A stretch of 64,000 nt of DNA from Opitutales bacterium. Lineage in GTDB: Bacteria > Verrucomicrobiota > Verrucomicrobiia > Opitutales > PNEW01. The stretch lies in assembly GCA_965197745.1 (NCBI GenBank), contig CBDANS010000006.1, positions 1,088,001-1,152,000 on the forward strand, written 5' to 3'. Positions 4,912 through 64,000 of this stretch are shown one piece after another. A program made the translations under genes and the position numbers. Position 1 is the stretch's first letter, and each line of letters starts with the position of its first letter. Below the pieces are notes generated by a model. The model worked only from the letters and a program-made list of their open reading frames with translations, ran no database searches and was not told the DNA's origin.

Positions 4912-7158
4912 TCACTCAATAGTGATCTCCTCGGGAACAACCTCGATCGCATCGCCATCTTCATTGGCGAAGGTCGCATTGACACTCTGTGTCGGCTGTG
5001 GAGTATTGTCGGACTTAAAATTGTTCTGCGTTATCAAGGTATCAAATCCCGTCGTTGTCGATCCGCTCTCTGCGACTACGACCGCGGCACCGTTTGTCTG
5101 CAATAAGTCTCCACCCGTGATCCGCAAGCCGGGGTTACCGGCTGCTGCGGTGAACGATCCTTCTCCAAACAAAAGATGCGGCACCGCATCGCCATTGGCA
5201 TCGATGTCACCTACCGTTAAGCGTACCGCGATTGGTACCCCGCGCGCGTCGACACCGATCTTGCCCGTGCTTGCGCTGAACGTGGCGTTCGACAACTGCA
5301 TGCCGCCCATGCCCGTGGAATTTACAACCTCCACCAGGGTCACGTCCGCTTGTGCGTCGTAGACTTGACCCTCGGGGAAGAGGGCTTGGTTCACCGCGTT
5401 TATTCTTCCCACCGTAAAGATACTGAAGAAGGTATTAGCATCGGCACCATCGATAACCACGCTCGGTTTGCCCGTCACGTACTCTACCGTCTGGTTATAG
5501 CGCGGAGGTATGGCCGGGGGCAGGAAAGTGGCCGGGTCCAGGGTTACGGTAAAGGTTCCTGCACCTGAGAACTCTACCTGTACAATGTCCTCGGTTTCGT
5601 CCATGAAGGAAACGCGGGTGATTTGGTTGGGTCGGGCTTGAAGCTGGATGGATTCTCCGGTTAGCAGGACCTGGTCAAAGACATTGCCATTCGGATGCTG
5701 AATATTCTCACCGGCGATATCGCCCGAGCCGTCGAGGATGAGGGGGACAGAAGGAGCTGCTATGGTGATGGCCGCAGTATCGCTGTCAGCGCTTCCTCCG
5801 GCGTTAGTTACCTGCACCCAGAAGTTTGTGCTCGTAGTGAGAGTGCCGGTGGTCAAGCTGCCGATAGTAGCGCCGACGACGGGACTCGATGTGTCACCGC
5901 TGTTGCCTGTAAACCATTGGTAAGTTAGATCGTCGCCGCTTGCGGTAACGGACAAACTCGCCGTTGCACCGGATGTGACTTCCTGGCTTGCCGGTTGGGT
6001 AGTGATAGCGGGAGCGGTGGCGGGCGGGGGTCCCTCAGAACCAGTTCCTGGTGCTCCTATCGGTGTATACCCAAAATCGTCGATCGCTGTATGACCTTCT
6101 GTATTGTTAGTAGGATGATCTCTCAATACAATCTTACCAATGCCTCCGGGGGCTCCTAATTCATCCGCATTAATATTTACTGAACCGGGCTTAGTAGTGG
6201 AAGTAACATCCGATTCTAAATTATCAATCGTAACGAGTAAGTTGTCGTTTGTATCATAGACGTCAATAAAGCCATCGGGTAAAATTCCCTCTTTGGGTGG
6301 TGTACTCTGTGATGCGAATGCGTCTATTTTATAAGCTGGAGTTTCAAAAGTGATGGTTGCTTCTTCACCATTTATCACTGCATAAGAAGTGGACATCGAG
6401 CGCACATGATTGGGACCATCAGTCCATGCAACGATAATAGCGCCTCCATCAAAAGTAGCAGTATTCGGCGAAATCCCAATGACCAAGGGTTCCAACAGTC
6501 CATCACCAGCGCCAAAAAATGTGAAATCCTCGTAAACAGTGTTGTTTGAGGGGAAGTCGGTCAGTGTGAATCCCAAGTCGTCGATCACGAGTTTTCCCAT
6601 AACATTAAAAAACTTCACTTCAATTATACCACTAAGGAAATCAAAATCTTCTGCATCAAAAAAATCACCGCTGTCTCCGACAAAACTGTATAAAGGGGGA
6701 TTAACTCCAGGGCTTATATTTGCTGGCAGCCCTTCGATGATGCCGCCATCTCCACCGCGAGAGCCCCCTATGACGATGTTAACTCTAATGTCAGTGGAGA
6801 AAACATCCCCTGTATTGATTTCTCCTCTTATCTCAAATTTGCCTGCGCCTGTCGTTTCACCCGCATAAAATTCTAGAAATTGCATCCCTCTTTGGGAGAA
6901 AATTTTTCCCTCCTGTCCAGGTCCAAGAGTTATTGCTTTGCAACCCGAATGTAAGAGCGAGGGATCCTCTAAAGTCTCCACCGTGAATCCGATCAAGGTA
7001 ACTACGTTTGGCTCCTGGCCAATGAAGATAGTCCCTTCCCCGCTGACGTTCTCGAAATTGATGAACACCTCCAGATCTTGAGGAAGGGCATAGAGACGGG
7101 ATGGTAAATAGAGCAAAAGAATCAGAATCTGAATTATTTTTATAGGGCTTCTTTTCAT
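4912..7158 (-). CDS. Secreted surface protein: signal peptide, two tandem beta-rich domains, Ig-like domain, conserved C-terminal domain (copy 1)
   Basis: Sec-type signal (MKRSPIKIIQILILLLYLPSRLYA), Pro-rich linker, Ig motif ITTQPASQ..LSVTASG..LTYQW, and the C-terminal domain shared with four paralogues. Confidence 0.85.
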   Translation of the reverse strand: MKRSPIKIIQILILLLYLPSRLYALPQDLEVFINFENVSGEGTIFIGQEPNVVTLIGFTVETLEDPSLLHSGCKAITLGPGQEGKIFSQRGMQFLEFYAGETTGAGKFEIRGEINTGDVFSTDIRVNIVIGGSRGGDGGIIEGLPANISPGVNPPLYSFVGDSGDFFDAEDFDFLSGIIEVKFFNVMGKLVIDDLGFTLTDFPSNNTVYEDFTFFGAGDGLLEPLVIGISPNTATFDGGAIIVAWTDGPNHVRSMSTSYAVINGEEATITFETPAYKIDAFASQSTPPKEGILPDGFIDVYDTNDNLLVTIDNLESDVTSTTKPGSVNINADELGAPGGIGKIVLRDHPTNNTEGHTAIDDFGYTPIGAPGTGSEGPPPATAPAITTQPASQEVTSGATASLSVTASGDDLTYQWFTGNSGDTSSPVVGATIGSLTTGTLTTSTNFWVQVTNAGGSADSDTAAITIAAPSVPLILDGSGDIAGENIQHPNGNVFDQVLLTGESIQLQARPNQITRVSFMDETEDIVQVEFSGAGTFTVTLDPATFLPPAIPPRYNQTVEYVTGKPSVVIDGADANTFFSIFTVGRINAVNQALFPEGQVYDAQADVTLVEVVNSTGMGGMQLSNATFSASTGKIGVDARGVPIAVRLTVGDIDANGDAVPHLLFGEGSFTAAAGNPGLRITGGDLLQTNGAAVVVAESGSTTTGFDTLITQNNFKSDNTPQPTQSVNATFANEDGDAIEVVPEEITIE

Positions 7159-7588
7159 GCTGTTATAACGATTAAATCGATGCCAGAGATGTGGCGGGGA
7201 ATTCCTTTGCCGGATTGGTTAGTTATCCAACCTAACCATTATTTGATTATATGCGAGGGCTATAGGAGATAATCGATCGGGGTGGCAACCTTGGATTACT
7301 TAATACACAATAGAAGGTCAAAAGGGGTCAGGCTTCGCATTTAACCATTTTAGAGATTAAAGTTTTAATAGACCGACGGGAAGAACGCTGACGCGATGCG
7401 TCTTCACTCGTGTTAAGTGTTAAGCAGAGAGTATAAATACAAATTAATTTAAGATTATTTTTCACCTAAAACCCATGGCACGCCATAGTGAAACGACGGC
7501 GGCTAATACTTAAAACCTAACACCACTACTGCATACTTAACACCACATCAAAAAATCGCTCCTGCAAATTCGTAGCGAGGGAAGCGAG

Positions 7589-7892
7589 CCCAGGCCGAAC
7601 GCAAAGCCGAGAAATGGCAGGCGAAGCACGGGAAGAAGAAGTGAACAGTCGCTGTCGTCCTCTTTCATGTCATTGCGAAGAGTAACACGACGCGGCTACC
7701 GAGTCCTGTAGCTGCAGGACGACATCTTACATTTCAGGGGGATGTCTGTTGTGTATTGCAGGTCCCTGGATGTTAAGATTTACTTTAAACTGGACGAAAG
7801 CCTTAATTGAAAAAACGAACCCTCATTGGAAAGATCTGAGCGGAAATTGATATTCGTAGGTACAATGACAATTTGCCTGGATTGCTTCGTCT
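7589..7892 (+). repeat. ~305-bp direct repeat, copy 2
   Basis: Matches 4458-4767 and begins with AQAERKAEKWQAKHGKKK* (7588-7644). Confidence 0.92.
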
Positions 7893-7921
7893 CCCGCGAT
7901 TGCGGGTTTCTCGCAATGACA
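7668..7921. repeat. Palindromic MITE-like element with TGTCATTGCGA/TCGCAATGACA ends
   Basis: 11-bp perfect terminal inverted repeats; internal LIEKTNPHWKDLSGN* at 7803-7850. Confidence 0.85.
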
Positions 7922-7993
7922 AAAAGGGAAGAGCGCTTATGCGCGTGTTTTGTGTTAAGTAAATTAACCTAAAACCTAACTCTGATATATAGA

Positions 7994-8017
7994 TCATTCA
8001 ATCGTTACCTCATCAAC
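7994..8017 (-). pseudogene. Orphan 3' tail (VDEVTIE*) of the surface protein family, with its downstream flank
   Basis: ATAGATCATTCAATCGTTACCTC and the flank GTAAATTAACCTAAAACCTAAC match the 3' end and flank of the gene at 24582. Confidence 0.8.
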
Positions 8018-8063
8018 CCCTTCAGATTCTACTGCCCACAGCTAACCATTCTCAATTGTGCCA

Positions 8064-9105
8064 TTACACGAAGCGAGGCATGACCTCTCTGGCGAATAGC
8101 CCCATCGAACGCATCACCTTCTCGTGCTCCATTCCTCCAAAGGCGAAGTTGCAGCCAAAGTATTCGATACCCTGATCGCGGAGTTCCTGGATTTTGGCGA
8201 TACAGGAATCGGGGTCGCCCAGGAACGCGCGGTTGTCATGGAGATAAGTCGTAGCTCACGGGTAACTCCGACCGCGCTTTGCGCCAGTCTTCGATGTTGT
8301 AGGGCACCTCGCTACTCTCGCTGAATGTGCCGCGATACTGCAAGATGTCCAGCACCCAATTCAGACGCTCCTCGGCGTCTTTCCGTACCTGTTCTGCTGT
8401 CTCGGCGACATAGAAATATCGGAAGAAGGGTATGTCGGACATGGGGATGTTCGATCCAGACTCCTCCGACATTTTCACAAATCGCCGGCACAGGTCCAGA
8501 GCAGCGGCCGTGTCCTGCACTACGGCGGCGCAAAGGGTGTAGCCCCGCGAGATGATATACTCCAGCGTCGCCCGGGTGCTGGTGGCTCCGACATAGATCG
8601 GCGGATGCGGCTTTTGCACCGGCGGGGGAACCAGGTTCAGCTTGTTGACACTGTAATAATTGCCCGAAAAAGAGAACTCCGTTGTCGTCCACAGGCCCTC
8701 GATTACTCTGATGCACTCCTGGAAACGCTCCTGGCTGTCCTCCGCGGCGATATTGAACCCGCCGTACTCGTAGCCCGTAAACCCGCGTCCGAAACCGACG
8801 TCGAGACGCCCTCCGCTGATGTGGTCGACAGTGGCGGTGTCCTCGGCCAGACGTATGGGGTTGTGCAGTGTGGGTACCAGGACGCCCGTGGCCAGACGTA
8901 TCGTTTTCGTTTTGGCCGCAGCAGCACTTGCCACGACCAGTGACGAAGATCCCATGCTGTAACGGGAGAAGTGGTGCTCGGCGAACCACGCGCTGTAGAA
9001 CCCGAGTTCCTCAGCGTACTGCACCTGCTCAAGTGTCTCGGCAAATATTCGCGAGGGGTCCGACTCTTCGGGCCAGGGCATATGAAAAAAGACGGCGAAT
9101 TTCAT
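8064..9105 (-). pseudogene. Luciferase-like (LLM) flavin-dependent monooxygenase, frameshifted near the 3' end
   Basis: WFAEHHF, HNPIRLAED, SGGRLDVGFGRG and PVQKPHPPI motifs. One extra base at ~8247; the other frame continues YLHDNRAFLGDPD..FAREVMPRFV* to 8064. Confidence 0.85.
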
Positions 9106-9185
9106 GTATTTATTTATAGTCGAATTAAACCGATTATCCAGCTAACTGTGTTCTGGATTGGTGATGGCAGGGAGTTCCTCTTTCC

Positions 9186-9248
9186 TTCCATGAGGCGACT
9201 GAAACCCTCGACATCAGCGCTGAGTATGGCCGTTAGCTTGCGTTCCAT
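9186..9248 (-). pseudogene. 5' stub of a class III adenylate/guanylate cyclase gene
   Basis: MERKLTAILSADVEGFSRLME preceded by an RBS (GAGGGAG); similarity ends after ~21 codons. Confidence 0.7.
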
Positions 9249-15539: not shown

Positions 15540-15750
15540 GATGAAAAATTTATGAATTTTTCAGTGTCAGGTGTTAAGTTTTAAGGACGCACAAAATCAG
15601 GGTCAAACGTAGAATATAAATATACTCGGTAAGCAGGGCCCGGCAGTCGATTGATTCATGATGCATGCTGCAGGATACCGGATGCGCGATGCAGTATTCA
15701 GGATGTCATGGGGTAGGGGGTCGGATTGCAGAATGTGAATTTATTTTTAT

Positions 15751-15853
15751 TGTCATTGCGAGGAGCAACGCGACGTGGCAATCCAGGCGAATGAATGTAC
15801 GCAACCGACATTCCCCTGGATCGCCACGGCTGACAAGCAGCCTCGCGATGACA
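15751..15853. repeat. Palindromic TGTCATTGCGAGG element
   Basis: Terminal inverted repeat TGTCATTGCGAGG/CCTCGCGATGACA and inner CGTGGCAATCCAGG/CCTGGATCGCCACG. Confidence 0.85.
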
Positions 15854-15883: not shown

Positions 15884-18091
15884 TCATTCTATCGTTAACT
15901 CTTCAACGGCAACCTCGATCGCATCTCCGTCCTCGTTGGCGAAGGTTGCATCGATACTCAGCGTCGGCTGAGGCGTTTCGTCGGACTTGAAGTTGTTCTG
16001 AGTGATCAGGGTCTCAAACCCCGGTGTCGTCGATCCACTCTCTGCCACGACGATCGAAGCGTCATTTGTCTGCACCAGGTCTCCTCCCGTGATGCGCAAC
16101 CCGGGGTTGCCCGCCGGTACCGTGAAGGAACCTTCTCCGAACAGGAGATGGGGCACCGCGTCACCATCGGCGTCGATGTCACCCACCGTTAAACGTACCG
16201 CGATCGGCACACCGCGCGCATGGAAGCCCACCTTGCCCGTGCTTCCACTGAACACGGCATTCGATAACTGTACCCCTCCCAGTCCCGTGGAGTTGACTAC
16301 TTCCACGAGGGCTACGTCTGCCTGGGCATCATAGACCTGTCCTTCGGGGAAAAGGGCCTGATTAAAGGCGTTGATCCTGCCCACGGTAAAGATACTGAAG
16401 AAGGTATTGGCGTCCGCTCCATCGATGACCACGCTCGGTTTGCCCGTCACGTACTCCACGGCCTGGTTGTAGCGTGGAGGGATGGCCGGGGGGAGAAAGG
16501 TGGCTGGATCGAGGGTTACGGTAAAGGTGCCATTACCTGAAAATTCTACCTGCACGATGTCCTCGTTTTCATCCATGAAGGAGACGCGTGTAATCTGTCC
16601 CGGCTTAGCCTGGAGTTGGACGGACTCCCCGGTGAGTAAAATCTGATCGAAGACATTGCCGTTGGCATGCTGGATGTTTTCACCGGCGATATCTCCCGAG
16701 CCGTCGAGGACGAGGGGCACTGAGGGCGCTGCCACAGTGATGACCGCGGTATCGCTGTCAGCACTACCTCCGGCGTTTGTAACCTGTGCCCAGTAGTTTG
16801 TGCTCGTGGTGAGCGCCCCGGTAGTTAGCGTGCCGCCTGTGGCTCCGACAACGGGGTTGGCGGTGTCACCACTGTTGCCGGTATACCACTGGTTAGTGAG
16901 ATCATCGCCGCTGGCGGCAACCGATAGAACGACAGCTGTACCGGACTGCACTTCCTGGCTCGCGGGTTGGGTGGTAATGGAGGGACCTGTTGCGGGGGGC
17001 GGTTCACCGCCGCCGTCGAAACCGGGGGTTCCAATAGGGGTAAAACCGAAGTCGGCGATACCCGTTAGGCTGAACGATGGATTTACATTTTCTTTATCGC
17101 TTAAAGTAATTTTGGCAATGCCGCCCACGGCTCCCAATTCACTGGCAACCAATTTATAATTAAGAGGAAGGGATTCTTCTCGAATGTCCGCCGGGAAATC
17201 TTCGAGCGTAGTGAGTAAGTTATCTACCGTGTCAAATACCTCAATAGTACCGTCACTTTGGCCTAGTGTTGCTGTGTTCTGTGTTGCGGTGGCATAAAAT
17301 TGAACCCGCGCTGCCGGGGTTTCGAAAGTGATCGTTGAGGTTTCACCATTTAACACTCTCCAGAGGTTGCATGTTCGGCGTTGATTTCCCAATTCACCTG
17401 CTCTTACAAAGCCATCAGTAAACGTGGCGGCAAAAGGAGATGATCCAACCGTAATTTCTTGTTCTGCTTCGTTGAATTCACAAAATGTGGTATACACGGT
17501 ATTATTCCTTGGCTCATCTGAAAGGGTAAAACCAAGATCATCGACGACTAATTTTCCCGTGACATTAAAGAACTTAATTTCAGCTATACCATCATAATAG
17601 GCGAAGAAACCTAATTCCCGAAAATCATCTCTCACCGCGACGAATCGTTGCACAGAAGGATTGCTATCAGGGTTGATACTGGTCGGTAAGCCAGTTACTA
17701 CATACTGCGGTAATAAGGATATTAAATTAACATCTTCATTTTGGATTAATTGGAAACCTCGGGCTTCGAACTTACCCGCGCCCGTGTTTTCGGCCACGTA
17801 GAATTCGATTTCATCAATCCCCCTTTCATAGACGATCTTCCCTTCCTGACCAGGCCCGAGGGTTATCGCTTTTGTTCCGGAGTGTAAGAGCGCCGGATCT
17901 TCCAGCGTTTCCACCGTGAATCCGACTATCTTGATTCTGTTGGGTTCTTCCCCAATGAAAAATTCACCTTCCCCGCTGATGTCCTCAAAATCGGTGAACA
18001 CCTCCAGATCTTGAGGCAGGGCCGACAGGCGCACCGGTATATAGAGAAAAAGAATCAGAAGCGGAATTATTTTTATAGGTTGTCTTTCCAT
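15884..18091 (-). CDS. Secreted surface protein with the conserved C-terminal domain (copy 2)
   Basis: Same architecture as 4912..7158 with a divergent central region. Confidence 0.85.
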   Translation of the reverse strand: MERQPIKIIPLLILFLYIPVRLSALPQDLEVFTDFEDISGEGEFFIGEEPNRIKIVGFTVETLEDPALLHSGTKAITLGPGQEGKIVYERGIDEIEFYVAENTGAGKFEARGFQLIQNEDVNLISLLPQYVVTGLPTSINPDSNPSVQRFVAVRDDFRELGFFAYYDGIAEIKFFNVTGKLVVDDLGFTLSDEPRNNTVYTTFCEFNEAEQEITVGSSPFAATFTDGFVRAGELGNQRRTCNLWRVLNGETSTITFETPAARVQFYATATQNTATLGQSDGTIEVFDTVDNLLTTLEDFPADIREESLPLNYKLVASELGAVGGIAKITLSDKENVNPSFSLTGIADFGFTPIGTPGFDGGGEPPPATGPSITTQPASQEVQSGTAVVLSVAASGDDLTNQWYTGNSGDTANPVVGATGGTLTTGALTTSTNYWAQVTNAGGSADSDTAVITVAAPSVPLVLDGSGDIAGENIQHANGNVFDQILLTGESVQLQAKPGQITRVSFMDENEDIVQVEFSGNGTFTVTLDPATFLPPAIPPRYNQAVEYVTGKPSVVIDGADANTFFSIFTVGRINAFNQALFPEGQVYDAQADVALVEVVNSTGLGGVQLSNAVFSGSTGKVGFHARGVPIAVRLTVGDIDADGDAVPHLLFGEGSFTVPAGNPGLRITGGDLVQTNDASIVVAESGSTTPGFETLITQNNFKSDETPQPTLSIDATFANEDGDAIEVAVEELTIE

Positions 18092-19892: not shown

Positions 19893-22118
19893 TCACTCTA
19901 TCGTAATCTCTTCGGTCGTCACCGCAATGTCATCACCATCTTCATTGGCGAAAGTGGCGTCGATACTCAGGGTCGGCTGAGGTGTTTCGTCGGACTTGAA
20001 GTTGTTCTGGGTGATCAGGGTCTCAAACCCGGTCGTGGTTGAACCACTCTCCGCGACCACGACCGCGGCGCCATTCGTTTGCAAGAGGTCGCCTCCGGTG
20101 ATCCGCATCCCGGGGTTGCCGGCCGGTACTGTGAAGGATCCTTCTCCGAACAGGAGGTGCGGCACCGCGTCACCATCGGCGTCGATGTCGCCTACTGTCA
20201 AGCGTACCGCGATCGGCACGCCCCGTGCATCGAAGCCCACCTTGCCCGTGCTTCCACTGAACACGGCATTCGATAATTGCACCCCTCCAAGGCCTGTGGA
20301 GTTAACAACTTCCACGAGGGCTACGTCGGCCTGGGCGTCATAGACCTGTCCTTCGGGGAACAGGGCTTTGTTAAAGGCGTTGATCCTTCCCACGGTGAAG
20401 ATGCTGAAGAAGGTATTGGCATCCGCTCCGTCGATGACTACGCTCGGCTTGCCCGTCACGTACTCAACGGCCTGGTTGTAGCGTGGAGGGATGGCTGGGG
20501 CTAGGAAGGTAGCCGGGTCCAGGGTTACGGTAAAGGTGCCATTACCTGAAAATTCTACCTGCACAATGTCTTCGTTTTCGTCCATGAAGGAAACGCGGGT
20601 GATCTGTCCCGGCTTGGCCTGGAGTTGGACAGACTCCCCGGTGAGTAAAATCTGGTCGAAGACATTACCGTTGGCATGCTGGATGTTTTCCCCGGCGATA
20701 TCTCCCGAGCCGTCAAGGACGAGGGGAACCGAAGGTGCTGCTACCGTGACGACAGCGGTTTCGCTGTCAGCTGTACCTCCCGCGTTTGTAATCTGCACCC
20801 AGTAGCTCGTGCTCGCAGTTAGAGCACTCGTTGTTAAAGTACTGCCGGTAGCCCCGGCGACGGGGTTGGCGGTATCACCGCTGTTGCCAGTGTACCACTG
20901 GTAAGTAAGATCGTCACCACTGGCGGCAACGGACAAACTAGCCGATGCGCCGGACGCGACTTCCTGGCTTGCCGGCTGGGTAGAAATAGAAGGAGCGGTA
21001 GCGGGGGGCGGACCCTCGGAGCCGGTGCCCGGGGCGCCGATCGGGGTAAACCCAAAATCGTCGACTGTGGTACGACTGAAAGCAGGATTGAGATTGGGAT
21101 CATCCATCATCACCAGCCTGCTGATGCCACCCGGGGCTCCTAATTCATCCGCATTAATAGTTATAAAATTGGGTTTGAACTCAGGTCTAACATTTCCTTC
21201 TAAATCTCTAAAGGTTGCCAGTAAGTTATCGTTCGTATCATAGACTTCAATTGAGCCGTCGGGATCGGTGGTTCCAGCAGACACTGTGGTAGCTCCGAAA
21301 AAATCTATTTCATAGGCTGGAGTTTCAAAGGTGATGCTTGCCTCCCCTCCATTAAATAATCCATAAGCATTAAAAAACGAGCGTACATAAACGAGATTAC
21401 CTGCAACCCTGTTTATAATCATTCCTCCCTCAAAGGTAACAGTATTGGGCGAAGTACCCAGGACCAAGGGTTCTGATCCTCCTTCACCAGTACTAAATTC
21501 TTCAAAAGTGCTGAAAAAAGTGTTGTTTGACGGTAATTCGGTCAGGGTAAATCCCAGGTCATCGAGGACGAGTTTTCCCGTAACATTAAGAAACTTTACT
21601 TCGAGGATACCGCTGAGGAAATCAAAATCATCTGTATCTTGAAAAAACCCGCTGTCTCCGACAAAACTGTATAAAGGGGGATTGGCTCCAGGGCTGATAT
21701 TTGCTGGCAATCCTTCGATAAGACCTCCATCGCCAATGACGAAATTACTTTTAGTGTCAACTGAGAGGTCTGGTATGACTTCTCCTCTTACCTCCATTCT
21801 ACCTGCGCCCGTGTTCTCGCCCGCATAAAATTCCAGAAATTGTATACCTCTTGAGGAGATGATCTTTCCCTCCTGACCAGGTCCGAGGGTTAAAGCCTTA
21901 GTTCCCGAGTGTAAGAGCGCAGGATCCTCTAATGTTTCCACCGTGAAACCGACCAGGGTAACAACGTTTGGCTCCTGACCAATGAAGATAGTCCCTTCCC
22001 CGTTGATGTCCTCGAAATCAGTGAACACCTCCAGATCTTGTGGAAGGGCATAGAGACGTGCCGGTAAATAGAGAAAGAGAACCAGAAGCGGAATTGTTTT
22101 TATGAGCGGTTTTTTCAT
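19893..22118 (-). CDS. Secreted surface protein with the conserved C-terminal domain (copy 3)
   Basis: Same architecture; the passenger is most similar to copy 1. Confidence 0.85.
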   Translation of the reverse strand: MKKPLIKTIPLLVLFLYLPARLYALPQDLEVFTDFEDINGEGTIFIGQEPNVVTLVGFTVETLEDPALLHSGTKALTLGPGQEGKIISSRGIQFLEFYAGENTGAGRMEVRGEVIPDLSVDTKSNFVIGDGGLIEGLPANISPGANPPLYSFVGDSGFFQDTDDFDFLSGILEVKFLNVTGKLVLDDLGFTLTELPSNNTFFSTFEEFSTGEGGSEPLVLGTSPNTVTFEGGMIINRVAGNLVYVRSFFNAYGLFNGGEASITFETPAYEIDFFGATTVSAGTTDPDGSIEVYDTNDNLLATFRDLEGNVRPEFKPNFITINADELGAPGGISRLVMMDDPNLNPAFSRTTVDDFGFTPIGAPGTGSEGPPPATAPSISTQPASQEVASGASASLSVAASGDDLTYQWYTGNSGDTANPVAGATGSTLTTSALTASTSYWVQITNAGGTADSETAVVTVAAPSVPLVLDGSGDIAGENIQHANGNVFDQILLTGESVQLQAKPGQITRVSFMDENEDIVQVEFSGNGTFTVTLDPATFLAPAIPPRYNQAVEYVTGKPSVVIDGADANTFFSIFTVGRINAFNKALFPEGQVYDAQADVALVEVVNSTGLGGVQLSNAVFSGSTGKVGFDARGVPIAVRLTVGDIDADGDAVPHLLFGEGSFTVPAGNPGMRITGGDLLQTNGAAVVVAESGSTTTGFETLITQNNFKSDETPQPTLSIDATFANEDGDDIAVTTEEITIE

Positions 22119-24352: not shown

Positions 24353-24581
24353 TTTTAAAAAAATAAGCGTTATTTGCTGACCTCAATGCCAACACCCTTA
24401 TCTTGTGATTTCTACATATTTTAATTATTGGCGAGAGCTATAGGGGAATTCTATATGCCGTTTGAAAATTAAAGAAAAGGGCAGGTAAAAGGTGTAAATT
24501 AACTTAACCTAAAACCTAACACCCATGGCACGCCATAGTCGCGCACCCGCGGGACGACGGCGGCTAAAACTGATCGATAGA

Positions 24582-27557
24582 TCATTCAATCGTCACCTCT
24601 TTCACAATGACAGAGATACTCTGGCCATCTTCATTTGAGAATGTGGCATTGATACTCTGGGTTGGTTGGGGTGTAATATCGGACTTGAAGTTGTTTTGCG
24701 CTATGAGATTATTAAACCCGGGCGTCGTCGAACCGCTCTCCGCGACAACAATCGAGGCTCCGTTTGACTGCGTCAAGTCTCCACCGGTGATTCGCAATCC
24801 GGGGTTTCCAGCCGGGACCGTGAACGAACCTTCTCCGAACAGCAAATGGGGTATTGCATCGCCACTGGCATCGATGTCTCCTACGGTTAAACGTACAGCT
24901 ATGGGAACTCCTCGTGCATAGACGCCGACCTTACCTGTGCTTCCACTGAACACGGTATTTGATAGCTGTATCCCTCCAAACCCTGTGGAGTTGATCACTT
25001 CCACCAATGTGACATCGGCTTCGGCATCATAGACCTGCCCCTCGGGGAAGAGTGCCTGGTTCACAGCGTTAATCCTTCCTACCGTGAAGATACACTGAAG
25101 AAGGTGCTCGAATCAGCTTCATTGATGACGACGCTGGGTTTGCCGGAGACGTATTCAACCAGTTGGTTATAGCGTAGAGGCAGTGCAGCGGGTAGATACG
25201 TTGACGCATCCAGGGTTACGGTAAAGTTTCCGCTTCCCGAAAATTCTACCTGAACAATGTCCTCATTTTCATCCATGAAAGATACCCGTGTGATCTGTCC
25301 CGGCTTGGCCCGAAGCTGGATGAACTCTCCGGTTAGCAGGACCTGGTCAAAGGTGTTGCCGTTGGAATGCTGGATGTCCTGTCCGACGATAACCCCAGAT
25401 CCATCGAGGATAATATTCACGTCAGCAGCAGACTCAAATAAGGCAATATTGTGCCGGCCCCCGGCAGCGATATCGAAGACCCCGGAAAGGGCCTCAGGTA
25501 TCGTTGCCTGGCTGAAAGTATTGTCTCCCCAAGCAATGACATTTCCTTCAGAATCCAGAGCCAGGTTGTGATTAAAACCCGCAGCAATGGAAGTGACGCT
25601 GGAGGCATTAAACTGCACAGTAAAACCTTGCTTTGAGGCACTATTAATATTTTCGGGTAAATCAAGCTGGCCATTGTTATTTCGCCCCCAGGTAACTATG
25701 GTGCTGTCAGCTGTCAATGTCACGCTGTGTGAATTACCTGCAGCGACAACCTTTACATCAGATAATCCTTCCGGCACTGTCGCCTGACCGTAGACATTAT
25801 TTCCCCAAGCCACGACGGTGCCGTCCTTCTTCAAGGCGAGCGCATGCTCCCCACCCGCGGCTACGGCGATAACTCCAGTGAGACCATCAGGAATGGCTTG
25901 CTGGTCAAGGCTGCTATCCCCAAAGACTTCGATCTGTGCCGTTCGACCGTAAAGCTATACTGTGGATGGATCCGGCATCAACCTGGATTACTTCCGTGAG
26001 TCCCTCGGGTATGGTGGACTGACCCTCATCATCAGCGCCCCATGCTCCAATGCCGACAGCCGCTTGCTCACGATAGCCACCATCTATATTGGATAAACTG
26101 AAAGTTTCCCCGTTGATCATTATCTCTAAAAAGTAGAAGTAAGGGAATCCTGATTGAACTGAGGTATCATCGTAAACCGTTACGCTCAGATTGGACTGTA
26201 ATAAAACAGCCCCTTCAGTGTCAGGTTCAGTATTGCGAAAAAGATTATAAGTAGCCCCTTCAATGCTTTGCCAGGTAATCTGAATTTTATCAGTGAAAGT
26301 TCCTTTACTGGCTCGTAAAAATAGTTCTTCCGTTTTTTGCGATTCAGAGAAAACGACTGTATCAAAATTATTAACGAGATTGTTAATTACTACTTTAGCT
26401 TCTGAATTCTCACTTAAGTCTAAAGAATTTTCGTTGAGATAAAGGTAAGAGAGACTGCTCAATTCGGCCAGGGGATTGATATCGCTGATCTGGTTATCTA
26501 TTAGATATAAATCATTTAACTGGGTTATCTCAGCCATCGGGCTGATATCGCTGATCTGGTTACCGTCGAGAGATAGAATCGTCAGCTGCGTTAATCCGGC
26601 TAAGGGGTTAAGATTACCGATATTGTTATTGTCAAGATTCAGAAAAATCAGTTGGGATAAACCAGCCAGTGGATTGAGGTTATCGATGAGGTTCTGGTCA
26701 AGGAAGAGATCAGTGAGCTGGCTCATTTCACTCAATGGACTTAGATCGTTGATCTGGTTCGCTCCCAGATCAATGTATGTGAGCCGAGTTAAACCAGCCA
26801 AGGGACTGATATCGCTGATCTGATTATCGTAGAGGAACAATTCAGACAGTTGACTAAGTTCCGCCAAGGCACTGATGCTGCCAATCTGGTTGCTTTCCAG
26901 TACAAGGATATTCAATTCAGTCAAGCCAGCCAGGGCGCTGATATCACTTATCTGGTTATTGTCTAGACTAAGGGATAGAAGCTGGGTCAACCCAGACAGA
27001 GCGCTGATATCGCTTATCTGGTTGCCGAGAAGGAACAGTCCAGTCAGTTGACTCAGTCCAGCCAGGGCGCTGATGCTATCAACTTGGTTGCTGTTTAGAA
27101 CAAGGATTTGAAGTTCAGTCATGCCAGCCAGGGCGCTGATATCGATGATAAAATTATTGTCCAGGCGAAGGTCAATCAGTTGGGTTAAACCGATCAGTGG
27201 GCTGAGGTCACCGATTATATTATCAGGAAGATAAAGGTAAGACAGTTGATCCAGTCCAGCCAGGGCGCCGATATCGAAAATCAGGTTGTTATCCAGATCA
27301 AGTCTGGACAGGTTAACGGCATACTCTAACCCTGTTAAACTTATAATCCCTCTATCAATTCCATTAAGAGTATCTAATGAAGCCATATCCGTGTCGGTAA
27401 TGGCTCCTTCCGGTTTCTCCAGCGCTTCGCGAATAACTTTTTCCAGGGTTGAATCAGGAAAGATGATATCCACGGCATGCAATTCCGCGCACGCTAATGC
27501 TGAAAAAATCAATAATACGTTAATAGATTTAATCAGCAGCTTATAAAATTTTTTCAT
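24582..27557 (-). pseudogene. Secreted LRR (internalin-like) + RCC1/BLIP-II repeat protein with the conserved C-terminal domain (copy 4), two frameshifts
   Basis: Signal peptide, 22-aa LxxLxLxxNQISDISAL repeats and AAGxxHxxAL..DG.V.AWG repeats. +1 base at ~25935 and +2 bases (GT) at ~25093; the three ORFs join into one ~990-aa protein. Confidence 0.85.
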
Positions 27558-27809
27558 GTATAGGGTTATCAATGTGGCTAGACCTTTTCGCCCTGATAGA
27601 ATTATCTGAAAGTAGTAGAATTGTCTATCAATTTGGAGAAGATAGTATAGTTCATATTAATCCTATCAGGATCCTGAACATACATCCTTATGGTTTCTAA
27701 TGAAGCGATGGAGGTGAAATAAAGGGAATTATAAATACCTGTCCGCTAGATTATCATTTCTTCTTTTAATTTATTGCGGAAAATCGAGCGCTTCTCTAGT
27801 GTGCAGTTG

Positions 27810-31173: not shown

Positions 31174-31459
31174 CGTATCTTTAAGCAGCTTTTAAGCTTA
31201 GTAGAAAATAATAAACTACTCAACAGTTATCTCATCACGGGGAAACTGACTCCCTCACCATCTGGCGTCAGCGAATGTCATATCAATGCTTTGGGTCGGT
31301 TGTCCCGTTCGGCTTGAGCTTGTTCCGGAAAATCAGAGTCAGAAGACACCCTTCATTTTACAGTCTCGCAAGTGTGCGCATACAGAATAGAAAGGAATGC
31401 AAAAGTTTTACTTGCAGATTTTCGAGTTGCAGTAACGGTGTCGAAAATAATATCAGAAC

Positions 31460-33951: not shown

Positions 33952-33980
33952 ATTATATATGAAAATAACAAAGCACTCAA
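33952..33980 (-). promoter_or_regulatory. Sigma70-type promoter TTGAGT-N17-TATAAT
   Basis: Perfect -10 with a 17-nt spacer; the homologous sequence upstream of paralogue B reads TTGAGT-N17-TAAGCT (~31195-31223). Confidence 0.65.
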
Positions 33981-34185
33981 TAGTTATCTCATCCGCATTG
34001 ACCGTGGCACACCGTTGAGCTTCAGGAACTGTTGAATGAAAGATGTCGCGATCTATACAACAATTGGTCGGAACAGGTTCTACATAGTTTTACGATGAAA
34101 ATTACATGGCTTAATACTTAAAATTTATACATTTCACTCGATAGAGAAAAAACACATTTAATGCGATACTTGTAGCAATCAAAAA

Positions 34186-59735: not shown

Positions 59736-59750
59736 AGGTGAGATAGAGAA

Positions 59751-60269
59751 ATGAAAGTGGAATTAAACGAGGCCAAAGAGGAAGACCTGCCGGTTGTTTT
59801 GAATCTCATTACGTACTATGTTTATGATATGTCGAAATCGACAGGGTGGGACTGCAACCCTCGGGGAATCTACGGTGGTTGCGACGATGCGCGAGAATAC
59901 TGGCAATCCAATCATCCCGATACTTCCCCTGAAATGAGATGGGCAAAGGGTCGAAAAGGGCATCCGTTTATGATTTCTGTTGATGGCAGGATTGCCGGGT
60001 TTGTCTTACTTCAAGAGCTATGTGATGAAGGAAAAACACTATTCGATGTTGGGGAGTTTTTTGTCGCTGGGAAATTCCAAAGAAAAGGAGTCGGAAAGTA
60101 TATTGCGCACACCCTCTTCAGACGATTTCGAGGTGACTGGAGAATTCGTCAGATCCCGGAAAACACACCCGCAATAAAATTCTGGGAACAGGTAATTGGC
60201 GAGTTCACCAATGGGAATTTTAAAATGAATAAAACAGAAGATACCGTTTTCCAGACTTTTAAAACTTAA
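59751..60269 (+). CDS. GNAT acetyltransferase
   Basis: EFFV..FQRKGVG and N.PA..FW motifs. Confidence 0.88.
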   Translation: MKVELNEAKEEDLPVVLNLITYYVYDMSKSTGWDCNPRGIYGGCDDAREYWQSNHPDTSPEMRWAKGRKGHPFMISVDGRIAGFVLLQELCDEGKTLFDVGEFFVAGKFQRKGVGKYIAHTLFRRFRGDWRIRQIPENTPAIKFWEQVIGEFTNGNFKMNKTEDTVFQTFKT

Positions 60270-60343
60270 GCAATATTCACCCTGTGTTACAATACAACAC
60301 AGGCTACCGTTACCGCGTATCAATACTGCCGCTCGGAATAAAT

Positions 60344-60880
60344 ATGAATAAGAAAGAATTAGCTAAAGTAATCTATGAGACTTCTAATATAAAAGGAAAA
60401 TTTCGTCTTAGATCCGGTGCGTTCAGCAATGAATATTTTGATAAATATTTATTCGAAGCTCAACCAGTTATTCTGAAAGCCATTGCTGAGTCAATGGCTC
60501 CCATGATTCCAGATGGAACTGAGGTCCTTGCGGGACTGGAAATGGGAGGGATTCCCTTAGTCACGATGCTTTCTCAGATAACTGAAATCCCTGCATTGTT
60601 TGTGAGAAAAAAGGCAAAAGATTATGGAACCTGTAAGCTTGCGGAGGGAGGGGAAGTAAAGGGAAAGAAAATGGTTATCATTGAAGATGTTGTTACTTCA
60701 GGAGGTCAGATAAATCTATCAGCGAAAGATCTTCGCAAAGAGGGGGCATTAATTGATACCGTTCTTTGTGTTATCGATCGCGAATCCGGAGGATTAGAGA
60801 ATTTAGAAAAAGAAGGGTTAGAACTAAGAGCACTTTTTACTAAGTCTGAATTGGTTGAGCATGCAGAAGAGTTTAGATAA
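60344..60880 (+). CDS. pyrE: Orotate phosphoribosyltransferase
   Basis: FRLRSG..YFDKY, VRKKAKDYG and the PRPP motif IIEDVVTSGG. Confidence 0.88.
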   Translation: MNKKELAKVIYETSNIKGKFRLRSGAFSNEYFDKYLFEAQPVILKAIAESMAPMIPDGTEVLAGLEMGGIPLVTMLSQITEIPALFVRKKAKDYGTCKLAEGGEVKGKKMVIIEDVVTSGGQINLSAKDLRKEGALIDTVLCVIDRESGGLENLEKEGLELRALFTKSELVEHAEEFR

Positions 60881-60902
60881 TTACCTGTAAATTATCGTAA
60901 AT

Positions 60903-61628
60903 ATGAAACGAAATTTAAACTCACTAAATCAACCAATCAGCTTTTCTGTTCCTGACTGGAAACCACCCAATACGCCGGCACGTGAGCCGGTGGAGGGACA
61001 ATATTGTCGTTTAGAGCCACTTGATCCGGACCGTCACGCAGCTGTACTCTACACAGCAAATACCCTGGATATTGAGGGGAGAATCTGGACTTATATGCCC
61101 TATGGCCCTTTCGAGACACTGGAAATCTATATTGATTGGATGAACCGAACATGTTGTGGCAGTGATCCTTCTTTCTTTACAATCATTGATAAAACAACGG
61201 GAGAAGCCGTTGGTGTAGCAAGCTATCTAAATATAAAACCAGGTAACGGAACGATTGAGGTTGGTCATCTCATCTACTCACCCCAATTACAGCGAACAAC
61301 AGCAGCCACTGAGGTAATGTATTTAATGATGCAAAAAGTATTTGACCTCGGGTATCGACGTTACGAATGGAAATGTAATGCGCTCAATGCAAACTCGCGT
61401 AGCGCGGCGCAGCGTCTCGGGTTTTCGTTCGAGGGGATTTTTCGCCAGGCAACGATCTCCAAGGGTCGCAATCGGGATACAGCCTGGTACTCAATAATCG
61501 ACAGGGAGTGGCCTGTTCTGCGAGATGCTTTTAAGCGTTGGCTCAATCCGTCAAACTTTGATAAAGACGGCAGACAGAGAACACGGCTATCTGAATTGAC
61601 GGATCCGATAATCAAACAGAGTGGTTAA
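60903..61628 (+). CDS. GNAT acetyltransferase (RimJ/RimL-like)
   Basis: IEVGH, GYRRYEWKC..N..S..AA.RLGFSFEG.FRQ and GRNRDTAW motifs. Confidence 0.9.
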   Translation: MKRNLNSLNQPISFSVPDWKPPNTPAREPVEGQYCRLEPLDPDRHAAVLYTANTLDIEGRIWTYMPYGPFETLEIYIDWMNRTCCGSDPSFFTIIDKTTGEAVGVASYLNIKPGNGTIEVGHLIYSPQLQRTTAATEVMYLMMQKVFDLGYRRYEWKCNALNANSRSAAQRLGFSFEGIFRQATISKGRNRDTAWYSIIDREWPVLRDAFKRWLNPSNFDKDGRQRTRLSELTDPIIKQSG

Positions 61629-61681
61629 ATAGATAGAGAGTATTATTCACTCATTATTGCCTTTATACGATATTGAAATCT

Positions 61682-62346
61682 ATGGGTTTTAAACTAAACA
61701 ATGTGGTCCCCTGGAAGAGTATTCGAGGATGTTTTCGCTCAACGAGGAAGACTTCAGCAAATGGATTCTCGGTTGTGGCGACGGCCCATCAAGTTTCAAT
61801 GTCGAGTGTCACAATCGAGGTGTTAAGGTCACTTCGGTTGATCCAATTTACACGTTCAGCAGGAGCGAGCTTGAGCGACGGTTTAAAGAAGTGAGGGAGG
61901 AGATTCTCAAGCAGACACGGGCTAATCTGCATCAATTTATATGGAATCATTTTGCTTCAATTGAGGATTTAGATCGGGCCCGGGTTGGTTCGATGGAACT
62001 GTTTCTGGATGATTTCGAATCGGGTCTCCGTGATGCACGTTATATAACGGGCAGTCTGCCCGAACTTCCTTTTGAAGATGGAGCTTTTGATTTATGCCTG
62101 GTTTCCCATTTTCTCTTTCTCTATAGTGAGCAACTTGACCTGGCATTCCATAGGCAGTCTATCGAGGAAATGATGCGCGTATCAAAAGAATTGCGAATAT
62201 TTCCCCTTCAACAGTTAGGCGCCACGCCGTCGCCGCATCTCGACGCTGTGGTCAAGATGCTTGAAGCGCGGTACCGCATGACAATTGTCGATGTTGATTA
62301 CGAGTTTCAGCGAGGATCGAACAAAATGTTAGTGATAAAAGTTTAA
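61682..62346 (+). pseudogene. SAM-dependent methyltransferase with a 5' frameshift/deletion
   Basis: MGFKLNNVVPW is in one frame; EEYSRMF..ILGCGDGPSSFN..SHFLFLYS is in another. Confidence 0.75.
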
Positions 62347-62410
62347 AAAGTAGTGCTGAGAACTTTACCAGCGCGCTTTGACTGAATTAATAATTATTCA
62401 AGAAATACCG

Positions 62411-62998
62411 ATGGATGATAAACAAATTTTATCCGTTCCGGACCTCGTTCGCGTAATTGAAAAAGAAACCCGGGATTTGAGATTTAAAATGGCATCTGAT
62501 TATCAAACGGGAAGTTTGCTGAGAAACCTTGCCTCAACAAAACCATCGGGAAAACTTTTAGAATTGGGTACAGGAACGGGTCTATCAACCTGCTGGCTTC
62601 TGGAAGGGATGGATAGCAAGGCAACGCTGATTACGGTCGATAATGATCCGAAAGTTGTCGAAGTGGCAAAACGGAATCTGTCTAAAGATACTCGAGTGAG
62701 TTTTAAGGTGATGGATGGTTCAGAATTACTAAAAGAGTTATCAGGGGAAAAGTTTGATTTAATTTTTGCCGATACCTGGCCCGGAAAGTACTGGGACTTC
62801 GAGAAAGCCATCGAACTATTGGATGAAGGAGGGATCTATGTTATTGATGATATGCTCCCTCAAAACAATTGGCCTCAAGATCATCCACCGAAAGTAGAAA
62901 ATTTAATTAATGAATTAGAACAGAGAAAGGATCTTGTGATTACCATGTTGAATTGGTCCACAGGGATAATCCTCGTAACCCGGAAACCGACTGCCTGA
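62411..62998 (+). CDS. O-methyltransferase
   Basis: LELGTGTG, FDLIFADTWPGK and GG.YVIDD motifs. Confidence 0.88.
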   Translation: MDDKQILSVPDLVRVIEKETRDLRFKMASDYQTGSLLRNLASTKPSGKLLELGTGTGLSTCWLLEGMDSKATLITVDNDPKVVEVAKRNLSKDTRVSFKVMDGSELLKELSGEKFDLIFADTWPGKYWDFEKAIELLDEGGIYVIDDMLPQNNWPQDHPPKVENLINELEQRKDLVITMLNWSTGIILVTRKPTA

Positions 62999-63118
62999 TA
63001 AAAGATAATCGCTGACGGGATCTTACCGGTGAATCTTTATCTGAAGACCGGTTTCAATAAGTCGCGGCACCAGGTAGGTGCCTACATGGCCTGTTCCGCC
63101 GATGATTACTACTTTCAA
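62995..63118 (-). pseudogene. 5' stub of an NAD-dependent epimerase paralogue
   Basis: MKVVIIGGTGHVGTYLVPRLIETG versus MKVVIIGGTGHAGTYLVPRLIEAG at 10707. Confidence 0.85.
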
Positions 63119-63133
63119 TTTATATTTTTACTC

Positions 63134-64000
63134 TCACTCAATGGTCAGTTCTTCAGTCGTCACCGTGACTTCGTCACCGTCTTCGTTGGCGAAGGTGGCA
63201 TCGATGCTCAGTGTCGGCTGAGGGGTGTTATCGGACTTGAAGTTGTTCTGGGTGATTAGGGTCTCAAACCCCGTCGTTGTTGAACCACTCTCCGCGACGA
63301 CAACCGCAGCTCCGTTCGTCTGCAACAGGTCACCTCCGGTGATCCGCAACCCGGGGTTGCCGGCCGGTACCGTGAAGGAACCGTCTCCAAACAACAGGTG
63401 CGGCACTGCATCACCACTGGCGTCAATGTCACCCACCGTTAAGCGCACCGCGATAGGCACCCCGCGCGCGTCCATCCCAACTTTTCCGGTACTCCCGCTG
63501 AAAACGGTATTCGATAACTGTACCCCTCCCAGTCCCGTGGAATTGATCACTTCCACGAGGACTACGTCCGCCTGGGCGTCATAGACCTGACCTTCAGGGA
63601 AGAGGGCCTGGTTAAAGGCATTGATCCTGCCCACTGTGAAGATACTGAAGAAGGTGCTGGAGTCGGCCCCATCGATGACCACGCTCGGTTTGCCCGTCAC
63701 GTACTCCACGGCTTGGTTGTAGCGTGGAGGGATGGCCGGGGGGAGGAAGGTGGCTGGGTCGAGGGTTACGGTAAAGGTCCCATTACCTGAAAATTCTACC
63801 TGTACGATATCCTCGTTTTCATCCATGAAGGAGACGCGGGTAATTTGTCCCGGCTTAGCCTGGAGTTGGACGGACTCCCCGGTGAGTAAAATCTGGTCGA
63901 AGACATTGCCGTTGGCATGCTGAATGTTTTCACCGGCGATATCTCCCGAGCCGTCGAGGACGAGGGGCACTGAGGGCGCTGCCACAGTGATGACCGCGGT
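63134..64000 (-). CDS. Surface protein family copy 5 (3' part; 5' end lies beyond the window)
   Basis: Complete conserved C-terminal domain preceded by the end of an Ig domain (TAVITVAAPS). Confidence 0.88.
   Translation of the reverse strand, partial: TAVITVAAPSVPLVLDGSGDIAGENIQHANGNVFDQILLTGESVQLQAKPGQITRVSFMDENEDIVQVEFSGNGTFTVTLDPATFLPPAIPPRYNQAVEYVTGKPSVVIDGADSSTFFSIFTVGRINAFNQALFPEGQVYDAQADVVLVEVINSTGLGGVQLSNTVFSGSTGKVGMDARGVPIAVRLTVGDIDASGDAVPHLLFGDGSFTVPAGNPGLRITGGDLLQTNGAAVVVAESGSTTTGFETLITQNNFKSDNTPQPTLSIDATFANEDGDEVTVTTEELTIE

What the first reader, a model, noticed from the sequence alone, without database searches (positions are those of the whole stretch)
4912..64000. A ~278-aa conserved C-terminal module on swappable secreted passengers: candidate undescribed surface sorting/anchoring system
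Seen: five genes (4912, 15884, 19893, 24582, 63134) end in an almost identical domain (LDGSG.I.GENIQH.NGNVFDQ.LLTG...RVSFMDENEDIVQVEFSG...PGLRITGGDL...E.TIE*). Two more orphan tails lie at 2856 and 7994, and all seven are on the minus strand. The four genes whose 5' end is in the window have Sec-type signal peptides. The passengers differ completely: tandem beta domains + Ig in three, LRR + RCC1-like repeats in one. The module has no terminal TM helix (unlike PEP-CTERM or LPXTG) and no terminal aromatic residue (unlike autotransporter barrels). Inference: it is a lineage-specific export, anchoring or lattice-forming domain, analogous to T9SS CTDs or S-layer assembly domains. I recall similar sequences in Opitutus proteins but cannot verify this.
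Basis: partly seen in the sequence, partly recalled or inferred. Interest (0 to 1): 0.82.

Follow-up and report, generated by a model that had tools for sequence, protein, structure and literature searches.

The report
Reused S-layer anchor on secreted proteins
The shared tail of these secreted proteins is an unnamed domain that, in related Opitutales bacteria, forms the cell-side end of surface-coat (S-layer) proteins, so it is probably a cell-surface anchor that this bacterium has attached to about 80 exported proteins while losing the coat gene itself.

Summary
The module is real. It is 277 aa, has 82 full copies in this Opitutales genome (78 C-terminal), is under purifying selection (dN/dS about 0.07), has no Pfam, NCBIfam or PDB match, and is predicted as an all-beta solenoid. 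The scan noted this family before, on this and other genomes.

New here is its origin. In relatives it is N-terminal, behind a LE.LE.RQLLA leader, on ~1,100-aa proteins. These genes lie in a locus with an M50-HlyD/GAF-HlyD/MFP/TolC exporter and wzt/glycosyltransferase genes. In four such proteins the rest is homologous to the lattice domain of the Caulobacter S-layer protein RsaA (E 1e-16 to 1e-66). In the best-mapped case the match starts at RsaA residue 252, so the module fills the slot of RsaA's O-antigen-binding anchor, with a different fold.

This genome keeps the exporter, wzm/wzt, lpxC and a type II secretion cluster, but only a leader relic of the coat gene. Best reading: a Gram-negative counterpart of SLH domains, not a C-terminal sorting signal. 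Binding, ligand and surface location are inferred. Four window passengers are paralogues, the LRR gene is frameshifted, and the minus-strand bias is local.

The parts
4912..7158 (-). 748-aa gene: Sec-type signal peptide, tandem beta-rich head (paralogue family), Pro linker, Ig_7 domain, module (4915-5745)
15884..18091 (-). 735-aa paralogue; module = 15887-16717 (P0001, the query used throughout)
   Evidence: model pLDDT 97.6
19893..22118 (-). 741-aa paralogue; module 19896-20726
24582..27572 (-). Broken gene: signal peptide, LRR, RCC1-like repeats, module (24585-25414). Three ORFs; frameshifts near 25930 and 25090
   Evidence: identical contigs in runs X1 and X3, one base fewer at 25933 in X5
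63134..64000 (-). 3' part of a fifth gene (whole gene C6:1151137-1153437, same head family, signal peptide); module 63137-63967
2856..2916 (-). Orphan tail (last 19 codons of a module gene) joined to the end of a short inverted-repeat element through a shared TTCGC: a deletion scar
7994..8017 (-). Orphan tail of 7 codons, preceded by the same flank as the 2856 tail
   Evidence: not detected by nhmmer
31218..31332 (-).
   Evidence: (E 1.1e-10)
33974..34006 (-). Possible further orphan tail (weak)
   Evidence: (E 0.36)
7321..7338 (+). Arm of the short inverted-repeat element that is also fused to the 2856 tail; lies upstream of the 4912 gene
   Evidence: 2 matches, 0.01 expected; 15 genome hits

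Best explanation
The module is the cell-proximal anchoring domain of an Opitutales S-layer system, reused as a portable surface anchor.

Shown by sequence: in relatives it is the N-terminal domain of ~1,000-1,300-aa Cys-poor, Gly/Thr/Ser-rich proteins that start with a LE.LE.RQLLA leader. Their outer part is swappable (RsaA-type lattice domain, another long beta-helix, cadherin/RTX). The gene lies within an exporter plus polysaccharide locus. The same domain is fused to dozens of Sec-signal proteins.

Inferred: (a) the leader-bearing proteins leave through the M50-HlyD/GAF-HlyD/MFP/TolC exporter and form a coat; (b) the module holds them non-covalently on the outer membrane, most likely on the Wzm/Wzt-exported O-polysaccharide, possibly Ca2+-dependently through its conserved D-x-D/N-x-D hairpin; (c) the window proteins go through Sec, then type II secretion, and are held on the same envelope ligand, with the Ig domain as a stalk presenting a variable head. 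The genes turn over by duplication, frameshift and deletion, which leaves the orphan tails.
For: Anchor slot. G323 protein L093:7759-11049 has the module (47% identical to P0001 over 218 aa), and its residues 313-1084 align colinearly with RsaA 252-1016 (E 8e-24 to the lattice-domain entry 5N97). Three metagenome proteins agree: L112 E 2.6e-66 from residue 283, L109 E 8.4e-40, L122 E 2.3e-16. Two other leader+module proteins of similar make-up gave no RsaA hit. RsaA residues 2-243 are the O-antigen-binding anchor (PMC6978808, passages).

Locus. A leader+module gene lies in the exporter locus of G025, G032, G057, G117, G139, G323 and G568, next to wzt in G057, G117, G139 and G323. Aeromonas vapA likewise lies directly upstream of wzt (PMC4483657, passages). 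In metagenomes, 8 of 8 leader+module loci with at least 4.2 kb upstream hold exporter genes, against 0 of 43 loci with other module forms.

Co-occurrence in the same 401 Opitutales genomes. The module is in 13; the GAF-HlyD gene at E<=1e-40 is in 11, of which 9 have the module.

Other. The domain occurs at either end, like SLH. dN/dS is about 0.07 with median dS 1.08. The predicted fold is a beta-solenoid whose nearest, weak neighbours are mostly polysaccharide lyases and tailspikes (Z<=6.6). This genome has lpxC, wzm/wzt/glycosyltransferases with a module gene inside that cluster, and a GspD/E/F/G/K cluster.
Against: No binding, localisation or lattice has been observed. This genome has no module-bearing coat protein: only a leader relic, and no match to either tail type. 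The Sec-type modules form their own clade and are only about 41-47% identical to leader-type modules, so their function may have shifted.

The coat-like proteins of this genome's own family show no sequence or Foldseek match to RsaA (VIA Z 10.8 at rmsd 18 A). The RsaA alignments are in biased sequence, and the first stretch is not significant on its own (i-Evalue 15-64). The module's fold differs from the alpha-helical RsaA anchor, so the ligand cannot be carried over by homology.

G014 and G041 have the exporter without a detected module. G083, G136 and G356 have the module without a close exporter match; all of these but G136 are in 160-290 contigs.
Confidence: 0.6

Rival explanations
1. The module is a secretion or folding domain (like the TPS domain of two-partner secretion): it is recognised by an export machine or nucleates folding of the beta-helix, and does not anchor.
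For: It caps a long beta-helix in many leader proteins (model). It is conserved and co-occurs with the exporter. TPS domains appear among weak Foldseek rows (HpmA E 1.9, EtpA E 4.3).
Against: Leader-bearing proteins without the module sit in the same loci (the 426-aa 'LEPR427', and a 2,508-aa protein in G120), so the module is not needed on every putative substrate. It occurs on proteins with two different N-terminal signals and at either end. The TPS rows are not significant.
Confidence: 0.15
2. The module mainly binds itself: it is an inner-ring or lattice-assembly domain, so the ~80 proteins co-polymerise into a mixed coat. This does not exclude glycan anchoring.
For: The RsaA anchor also oligomerises on O-antigen (PMC6978808). 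In G117 and G551 the Sec-type copies group with the divergent leader-type modules of G117 and G057 (support 100). Copies within this genome stay 85-95% alike despite large dS. Some proteins carry it at both ends.
Against: In family f1 and genus g87 the Sec-type copies do not track the same genome's leader-type module.
Confidence: 0.13
3. The module docks on a protein scaffold, for example the second leader-bearing protein of the locus (LEPR427), as dockerins dock on cohesins.
For: LEPR427 and the exporter are kept in G000 and G060, where no module-bearing coat gene is found. It is also present in G025, G032, G057, G139 and G323.
Against: It was not found in G117, G551, G568, G083 or G356 (that call had no positive control). 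It is only 21-31% identical between families, while the module stays above 40%.
Confidence: 0.07
4. The module is an outward-facing adhesin or lectin for a host or environmental glycan, not a self-anchor.
For: Beta-helix folds bind polysaccharides. The expansion is largest in one family (85-106 first-look candidates in the near-complete f1 genomes).
Against: It occupies the cell-side position in RsaA-type proteins. It is the constant part under strong purifying selection while the heads diverge (dN 0.03-0.08 against 0.24-0.51).
Confidence: 0.05

Closest known systems
Caulobacter crescentus RsaA (PDB 5N8P, 5N97, 6P5T, 6Z7P)
   Same: Two-part plan: ~250-aa N-terminal domain plus lattice domain. 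The lattice domain is homologous in 4 of the 6 leader+module proteins searched against PDB. The gene lies beside a TolC/MFP exporter and polysaccharide genes.
   Different: The N-terminal domain is an all-beta solenoid, not alpha-helical. There is an N-terminal LE.LE.RQLLA leader. No HlyB-type ABC protein was seen among the locus genes, which have M50-HlyD and GAF-HlyD instead. The domain is reused on Sec proteins. The window proteins have no lattice domain.
SLH domains (PF00395) and CWB2 repeats (PF04122) of Gram-positive bacteria
   Same: One non-covalent module at the N- or C-terminus of both the S-layer protein and many secreted enzymes and adhesins, with the ligand-polymer genes linked. 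SLH binding to wall polymers: PMC12175726, passages. The reuse of SLH on enzymes, and CWB2, are recalled.
   Different: No sequence match; a single 277-aa beta-solenoid instead of three short helical repeats; Gram-negative host with lpxC.
Aeromonas salmonicida VapA A-layer locus
   Same: S-layer gene directly next to the O-antigen wzt, tethered by LPS, with type II secretion genes (PMC4483657, passages).
   Different: No homology to VapA was tested or seen. Here the coat protein has a leader and a TolC-type exporter; type II secretion is inferred only for the Sec-type passengers.
T1SS-like module of Kamneva et al. 2015 (PMC4452313)
   Same: Peptidase_M50+HlyD, GAF+HlyD, HlyD/biotin-lipoyl and OEP (TolC) proteins without an exporter ABC (passages; families).
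   Different: No second SecA_DEAD gene in 5 of 5 genomes tested. The passages read name no substrate; here a candidate S-layer substrate lies in the locus.
T9SS C-terminal domains (Bacteroidota)
   Same: Sec signal + variable passenger + conserved C-terminal domain; the Ig_7 (CHU_C-associated) stalk is shared.
   Different: About three times longer than a T9SS CTD (CTD length recalled), not confined to the C-terminus, and no Pfam CTD match.

Membership tests
RsaA-type S-layer protein (relatives' leader+module proteins) | Lattice domain homologous to RsaA 249-1026 | tested here: met
   L093, L109, L112, L122; not in L103 or L064
RsaA-type S-layer protein (relatives' leader+module proteins) | Alpha-helical O-antigen-binding N-terminal domain | tested here: not met
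   Module model is all-beta apart from one 3-residue turn; profile has no PDB match
RsaA-type S-layer protein (relatives' leader+module proteins) | Crystalline lattice on cells; Ca2+- and LPS-dependent attachment | not testable with these tools
   needs cryo-EM and binding assays
RsaA-type S-layer protein (window proteins) | Carry a lattice domain, or the genome encodes one | tested here: not met
   No match in G000 to either tail type; the genome is 92% complete, but a leader relic sits at the locus
SLH / CWB2 | Match to PF00395 or PF04122 | tested here: not met
   Pfam, E<=0.1; NCBIfam
SLH / CWB2 (works like) | Same module on the S-layer protein and on diverse secreted proteins, at either terminus | tested here: met
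SLH / CWB2 (works like) | Binds a cell-envelope polysaccharide non-covalently | not testable with these tools
   inferred from position and gene linkage only
T9SS CTD | Strictly C-terminal domain matching the CTD models | tested here: not met
T9SS CTD | T9SS machinery in the genome | not tested
   no search run
PEP-CTERM / LPXTG | Motif + transmembrane helix + basic tail at the C-terminus | tested here: not met
   highest KD19 1.61; acidic end
Autotransporter beta-barrel | C-terminal membrane barrel ending in an aromatic residue | tested here: not met
   ends in F in 3 of 78; solenoid-like model
TPS secretion domain | Fold or profile match to TpsA N-terminal domains | tested here: inconclusive
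   no Pfam hit; Foldseek E>=1.9
Kamneva T1SS-like module (linked exporter) | M50+HlyD, GAF+HlyD, MFP and OEP genes clustered | tested here: met
   the GAF label is carried over from the paper, Pfam showed only the HlyD part
Kamneva T1SS-like module (linked exporter) | Secondary SecA_DEAD gene | tested here: not met
   one SecA_DEAD match per genome in 5 of 5, away from the locus

The most novel reading that the evidence does not exclude
This lineage has deleted its single crystalline coat gene and replaced it with a mosaic coat. About 80 proteins, 59 of them one fast-diverging family, share the old S-layer anchor, reach the surface by a different route (Sec plus type II secretion) and occupy the same O-polysaccharide sites. 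The coat repertoire is renewed by gene birth and death. The domain would be a general 'SLH-equivalent' for a Gram-negative lineage, and the leader+module proteins the first identified substrates of the ABC-less M50/HlyD/TolC exporter.
Probability: 0.3. Interest if true: 0.87.

Novelty: new variant of a known kind. Interest (0 to 1): 0.72.

Why it matters
Portable non-covalent surface anchors (SLH, CWB2) are known mainly from Gram-positive bacteria (recalled). A beta-solenoid that replaces the RsaA anchor on a true RsaA-type lattice domain, and is reused on tens of enzymes and adhesins, would be a new S-layer anchoring family in a Gram-negative phylum. I found no description of it in six literature searches (listings and abstract starts only). 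It gives the orphan T1SS-like exporter of Kamneva et al. a concrete candidate substrate and leader. It turns an unnamed domain into a directly testable claim, since the cultured Opitutus terrae carries the domain. It may also serve as a display tag.

Tried and rejected
- The search for homologous proteins timed out and was not repeated.
- PDB by sequence: only V-ATPase A at E>=0.02 for P0001 and nothing for the profile; treated as chance.
- Foldseek on the module: no hit at E<=0.001. VIA best Z 6.6, within the range of common arrangements, so the fold class is suggestive only.
- Complex prediction with three module copies: 'no answer'; not used as evidence.
- IQ-TREE did not finish, so the trees are FastTree, midpoint-drawn; test_one_clade was not run, and the direction of recruitment is not proven.
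- Sequencing runs: no RNA holder listed; no expression evidence.
- A home-made signal-peptide rule is too loose (62 of 82 module ORFs against 396 of 975 control ORFs); no SignalP was available.
- ESM Atlas for the head domains gave only leads under 0.9 (DUF4465, a PEP-CTERM-linked cluster, FlaA), so the heads remain unassigned.
- I first took the leader-bearing homologues for planctomycete proteins. The same architecture was then found in Opitutales genomes; Planctomycetota genomes were not searched.
- The search for LEPR427 in five genomes was empty and had no positive control.
- The 'LEPR' literature search was swamped by leptin-receptor papers.
- Supplements of PMC4452313 were not read; they could list neighbouring substrate genes.
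Full report
OBSERVATION. The four intact genes are one paralogue family: heads 43-64% identical, Ig 75-83%, module 87-95%. The fifth (LRR + RCC1) is split into three ORFs. Contigs from runs X1 and X3, two different studies, match 24558-27700 without a difference, while X5 lacks one base at 25933, so the break is real and varies between strains. The orphan tail at 2856 is fused to a short inverted-repeat element through a shared TTCGC. The tail at 7994 is seven codons long and escaped the nhmmer search; two more tails lie at 31218 and, weakly, 33974. I read all of these as deletion scars.

SCALE. A BLASTP of six-frame ORFs gives 102 hits in the 4.45-Mb genome, 82 covering more than 240 aa of the module. 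Of the 82, 78 end within 15 residues of the stop and 59 share one head family; 46 are on the minus strand and 36 on the plus. Among 47 copies at least 85% identical to P0001, 60 random pairs give median dS 1.08 and dN 0.070, so the likeness is kept by selection and is not just recent copying. Close relatives are Opitutales. There are 719 database representatives at E<=0.001, one being Opitutus terrae ACB74085.1. Passengers in relatives include subtilases, a polysaccharide lyase, NHL, FG-GAP and RCC1 propellers, CAP, cyclophilin, a beta-lactamase-family domain and Ig arrays (65 proteins scanned). A profile found the module in 13 of 401 Opitutales genomes and 4 of 401 genomes sampled across the phylum, all Opitutales; only six candidates per genome were scored.

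WHAT IT IS NOT. There is no Pfam, NCBIfam or PDB match, no membrane helix and no aromatic end. It is not only C-terminal: of 140 near-full domains in the best 150 representatives, 91 are C-terminal, 22 N-terminal, 14 internal, 8 nearly alone and 5 follow a leader (partial domains left out). AlphaFold2 with 90 sequences gives a confident all-beta model (pLDDT 97.6). Foldseek finds nothing significant, and VIA lists almost only beta-helix proteins, at Z<=6.6.

WHERE IT COMES FROM. I fetched the DNA around copies in low-copy genomes. There the module follows a LE.LE.RQLLA leader (weak PF07595 hits, E 0.0004-0.002, below cut-off) on Gly/Thr/Ser-rich, nearly Cys-free and mostly acidic proteins of 720-1,155 aa. 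In G025, G032, G057, G117, G139, G323 and G568 this gene lies in a locus with TolC-, HlyD- and MFP-type genes, usually M50-HlyD and a LuxR-type gene, and mostly wzt/wzm, glycosyl- and methyltransferase genes. The exporter resembles the ABC-less T1SS-like module of Kamneva et al. (PMC4452313, passages) but lacks the second SecA in 5 of 5 genomes tested.

In the 401-genome sample the GAF-HlyD gene is found in 11, nine of them module-positive. Against this, G014 and G041 have it (33-34% identical) without the module; G083, G136 and G356 have the module without a close exporter match; and G568's diverged exporter was missed by the search but seen in the locus. A metagenome scan kept the best 80 of 112 matches (77 loci): 29 leader+module ORFs in 27 loci. 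All 8 such loci with at least 4.2 kb upstream hold exporter genes, against 0 of 43 loci with other forms, 20 of which are 10 kb or longer. Seven 5'-open loci were set aside, and some loci are the same organism or contig.

THE ANCHOR SLOT. In G323 the module (47% identical to P0001 over 218 aa) ends near residue 305, and residues 313-1084 align colinearly with RsaA 252-1016 (E 8e-24, first stretch not significant alone, biased composition). L112 gives E 2.6e-66 from residue 283 to residue 3 of the lattice-domain construct; against full-length RsaA the alignment runs further back but scores lower, 212 against 228 bits. L109 gives E 8.4e-40. L122 gives E 2.3e-16, behind RTX-repeat hits. Two further leader+module proteins gave no RsaA hit; one of them models as a long beta-helix (pLDDT 74.6). 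G025's tail is cadherin/RTX. So leader+module is constant and the outer domain is swapped. In RsaA the first ~245 residues bind O-antigen in a Ca2+-dependent way and are alpha-helical (PMC6978808, passages). S-layer proteins generally pair an assembly domain with an anchoring domain (PMC12175726, passages), and Aeromonas vapA lies just upstream of wzt (PMC4483657, passages). The module therefore holds the anchor's position with a different fold.

RECRUITMENT. In FastTree trees (97 rows; 68 rows; subsets chosen for diversity) Sec-type copies fall in two places. One is a large clade spanning three families (support 98 and 92; in the second tree it also takes in the long-branch G568 leader protein). 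The other is inside a divergent clade with the G117 and G057 leader-type modules (support 100). This fits two recruitments from coat proteins, but the root is not established.

THIS GENOME. The exporter is intact at C6:926927-936445 and is followed by a second leader protein (426 aa) and then a bare leader, 78% identical in DNA to the start of the G032 coat gene, that runs into unrelated sequence. Neither tail type is found in G000 or G060. The genome has lpxC, a wzm/gmd/wzt/glycosyltransferase cluster with a module gene inside it, and a type II secretion cluster (GspD, E, F, G, K by Pfam). A route to the surface and a candidate ligand both exist.

MECHANISM AND ODDS. Shown: architecture, homology, linkage, selection, loss of the coat gene at its locus. 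Inferred: export routes, surface location, anchoring, ligand. My estimates: N-terminal domain of S-layer proteins in relatives, about 0.9; anchoring role, about 0.6; O-polysaccharide as the ligand, about 0.45. Rivals are a secretion/folding domain (0.15), self-assembly (0.13), a protein scaffold (0.07) and an outward adhesin (0.05).

PRIOR NOTES AND PRINT. The scan has reported this family repeatedly and guessed an anchor. The summary lines shown do not mention the S-layer link, and two word searches for it found no note holding all the words. Six paper searches listed nothing that describes the domain; I saw listings and abstract starts, plus passages of PMC5303756, which do not address it. 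Subscription papers and supplements were not seen.

VERDICT. Real, undescribed in the libraries tested, and best read as a new S-layer anchoring domain reused as a surface-display tag: a new variant of a known kind. Interest 0.72.

Noticed in passing
G000 C6:925570-926850 (L080:7571-8848); L055, L065, L068, L077, L079, L094: Second leader-bearing protein ('LEPR427') at the end of the exporter operon: small beta-rich N-part, acidic linker, conserved C-terminal ...PGERPG.. segment; no Pfam hit. Could be a tethered nucleator or retained substrate.
   Followed up: partly
G000 C6:925232-925516: Leader-only relic of the coat gene; G060 also lacks the gene, while G032 has four in tandem.
   Followed up: yes
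L109, L112, L114, L116, L117, L118, L123, L128, L131, L133, L134, L137: 12 of 27 leader+module loci are contigs holding just this gene (under 500 nt before the leader, under 200 nt after the stop). This would fit abundant single-gene transcripts, but the data type is not given.
   Followed up: no
P0048, P0055, P0061, P0066, P0092: Proteins with the module at both ends, separated by Ig domains in most: possible cell-to-cell or envelope cross-linkers.
   Followed up: no
3' flanks of module genes genome-wide; window 4850-4912 and 7920-7994: Several families of short repeats begin right at the module's stop codon in many copies; they may drive the deletions and shuffling.
   Followed up: no
window 2911-2928 and 7321-7338: Short inverted-repeat element, 15 genome hits with at most one mismatch, several as ~60-bp palindromic units.
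   Followed up: partly
window 15750-15790 and ~9490: Very high contig depth and many loose ends in all four runs: short high-copy repeats.
   Followed up: no
window 3092-4282: LanC-like protein (PF05147, E 1.4e-43) next to the 4912 gene, with no obvious lanthipeptide genes beside it.
   Followed up: no
window 13806-55318: More than a dozen ORFs that look like phytanoyl-CoA dioxygenase-family enzymes (label by eye and recall, not scanned), among sodium/solute symporter-like and luciferase-like genes.
   Followed up: no
window 93-2829: IS3-like transposase pieces and a Sel1/TPR-repeat-like ORF (labels by eye, not scanned).
   Followed up: no
L102:9-1625 (G356): Module followed by a second repeated, Pfam-less domain (two copies), suggesting another unnamed Opitutaceae terminal module.
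   Followed up: no
G000 C6:316961-318883 (L186:11962-13884): A CAP-domain module gene lies inside the wzm/wzt/glycosyltransferase cluster.
   Followed up: partly
L049 (G136): The only module copy in G136 is split and flanked by transposase-like genes: possibly a decaying import.
   Followed up: no
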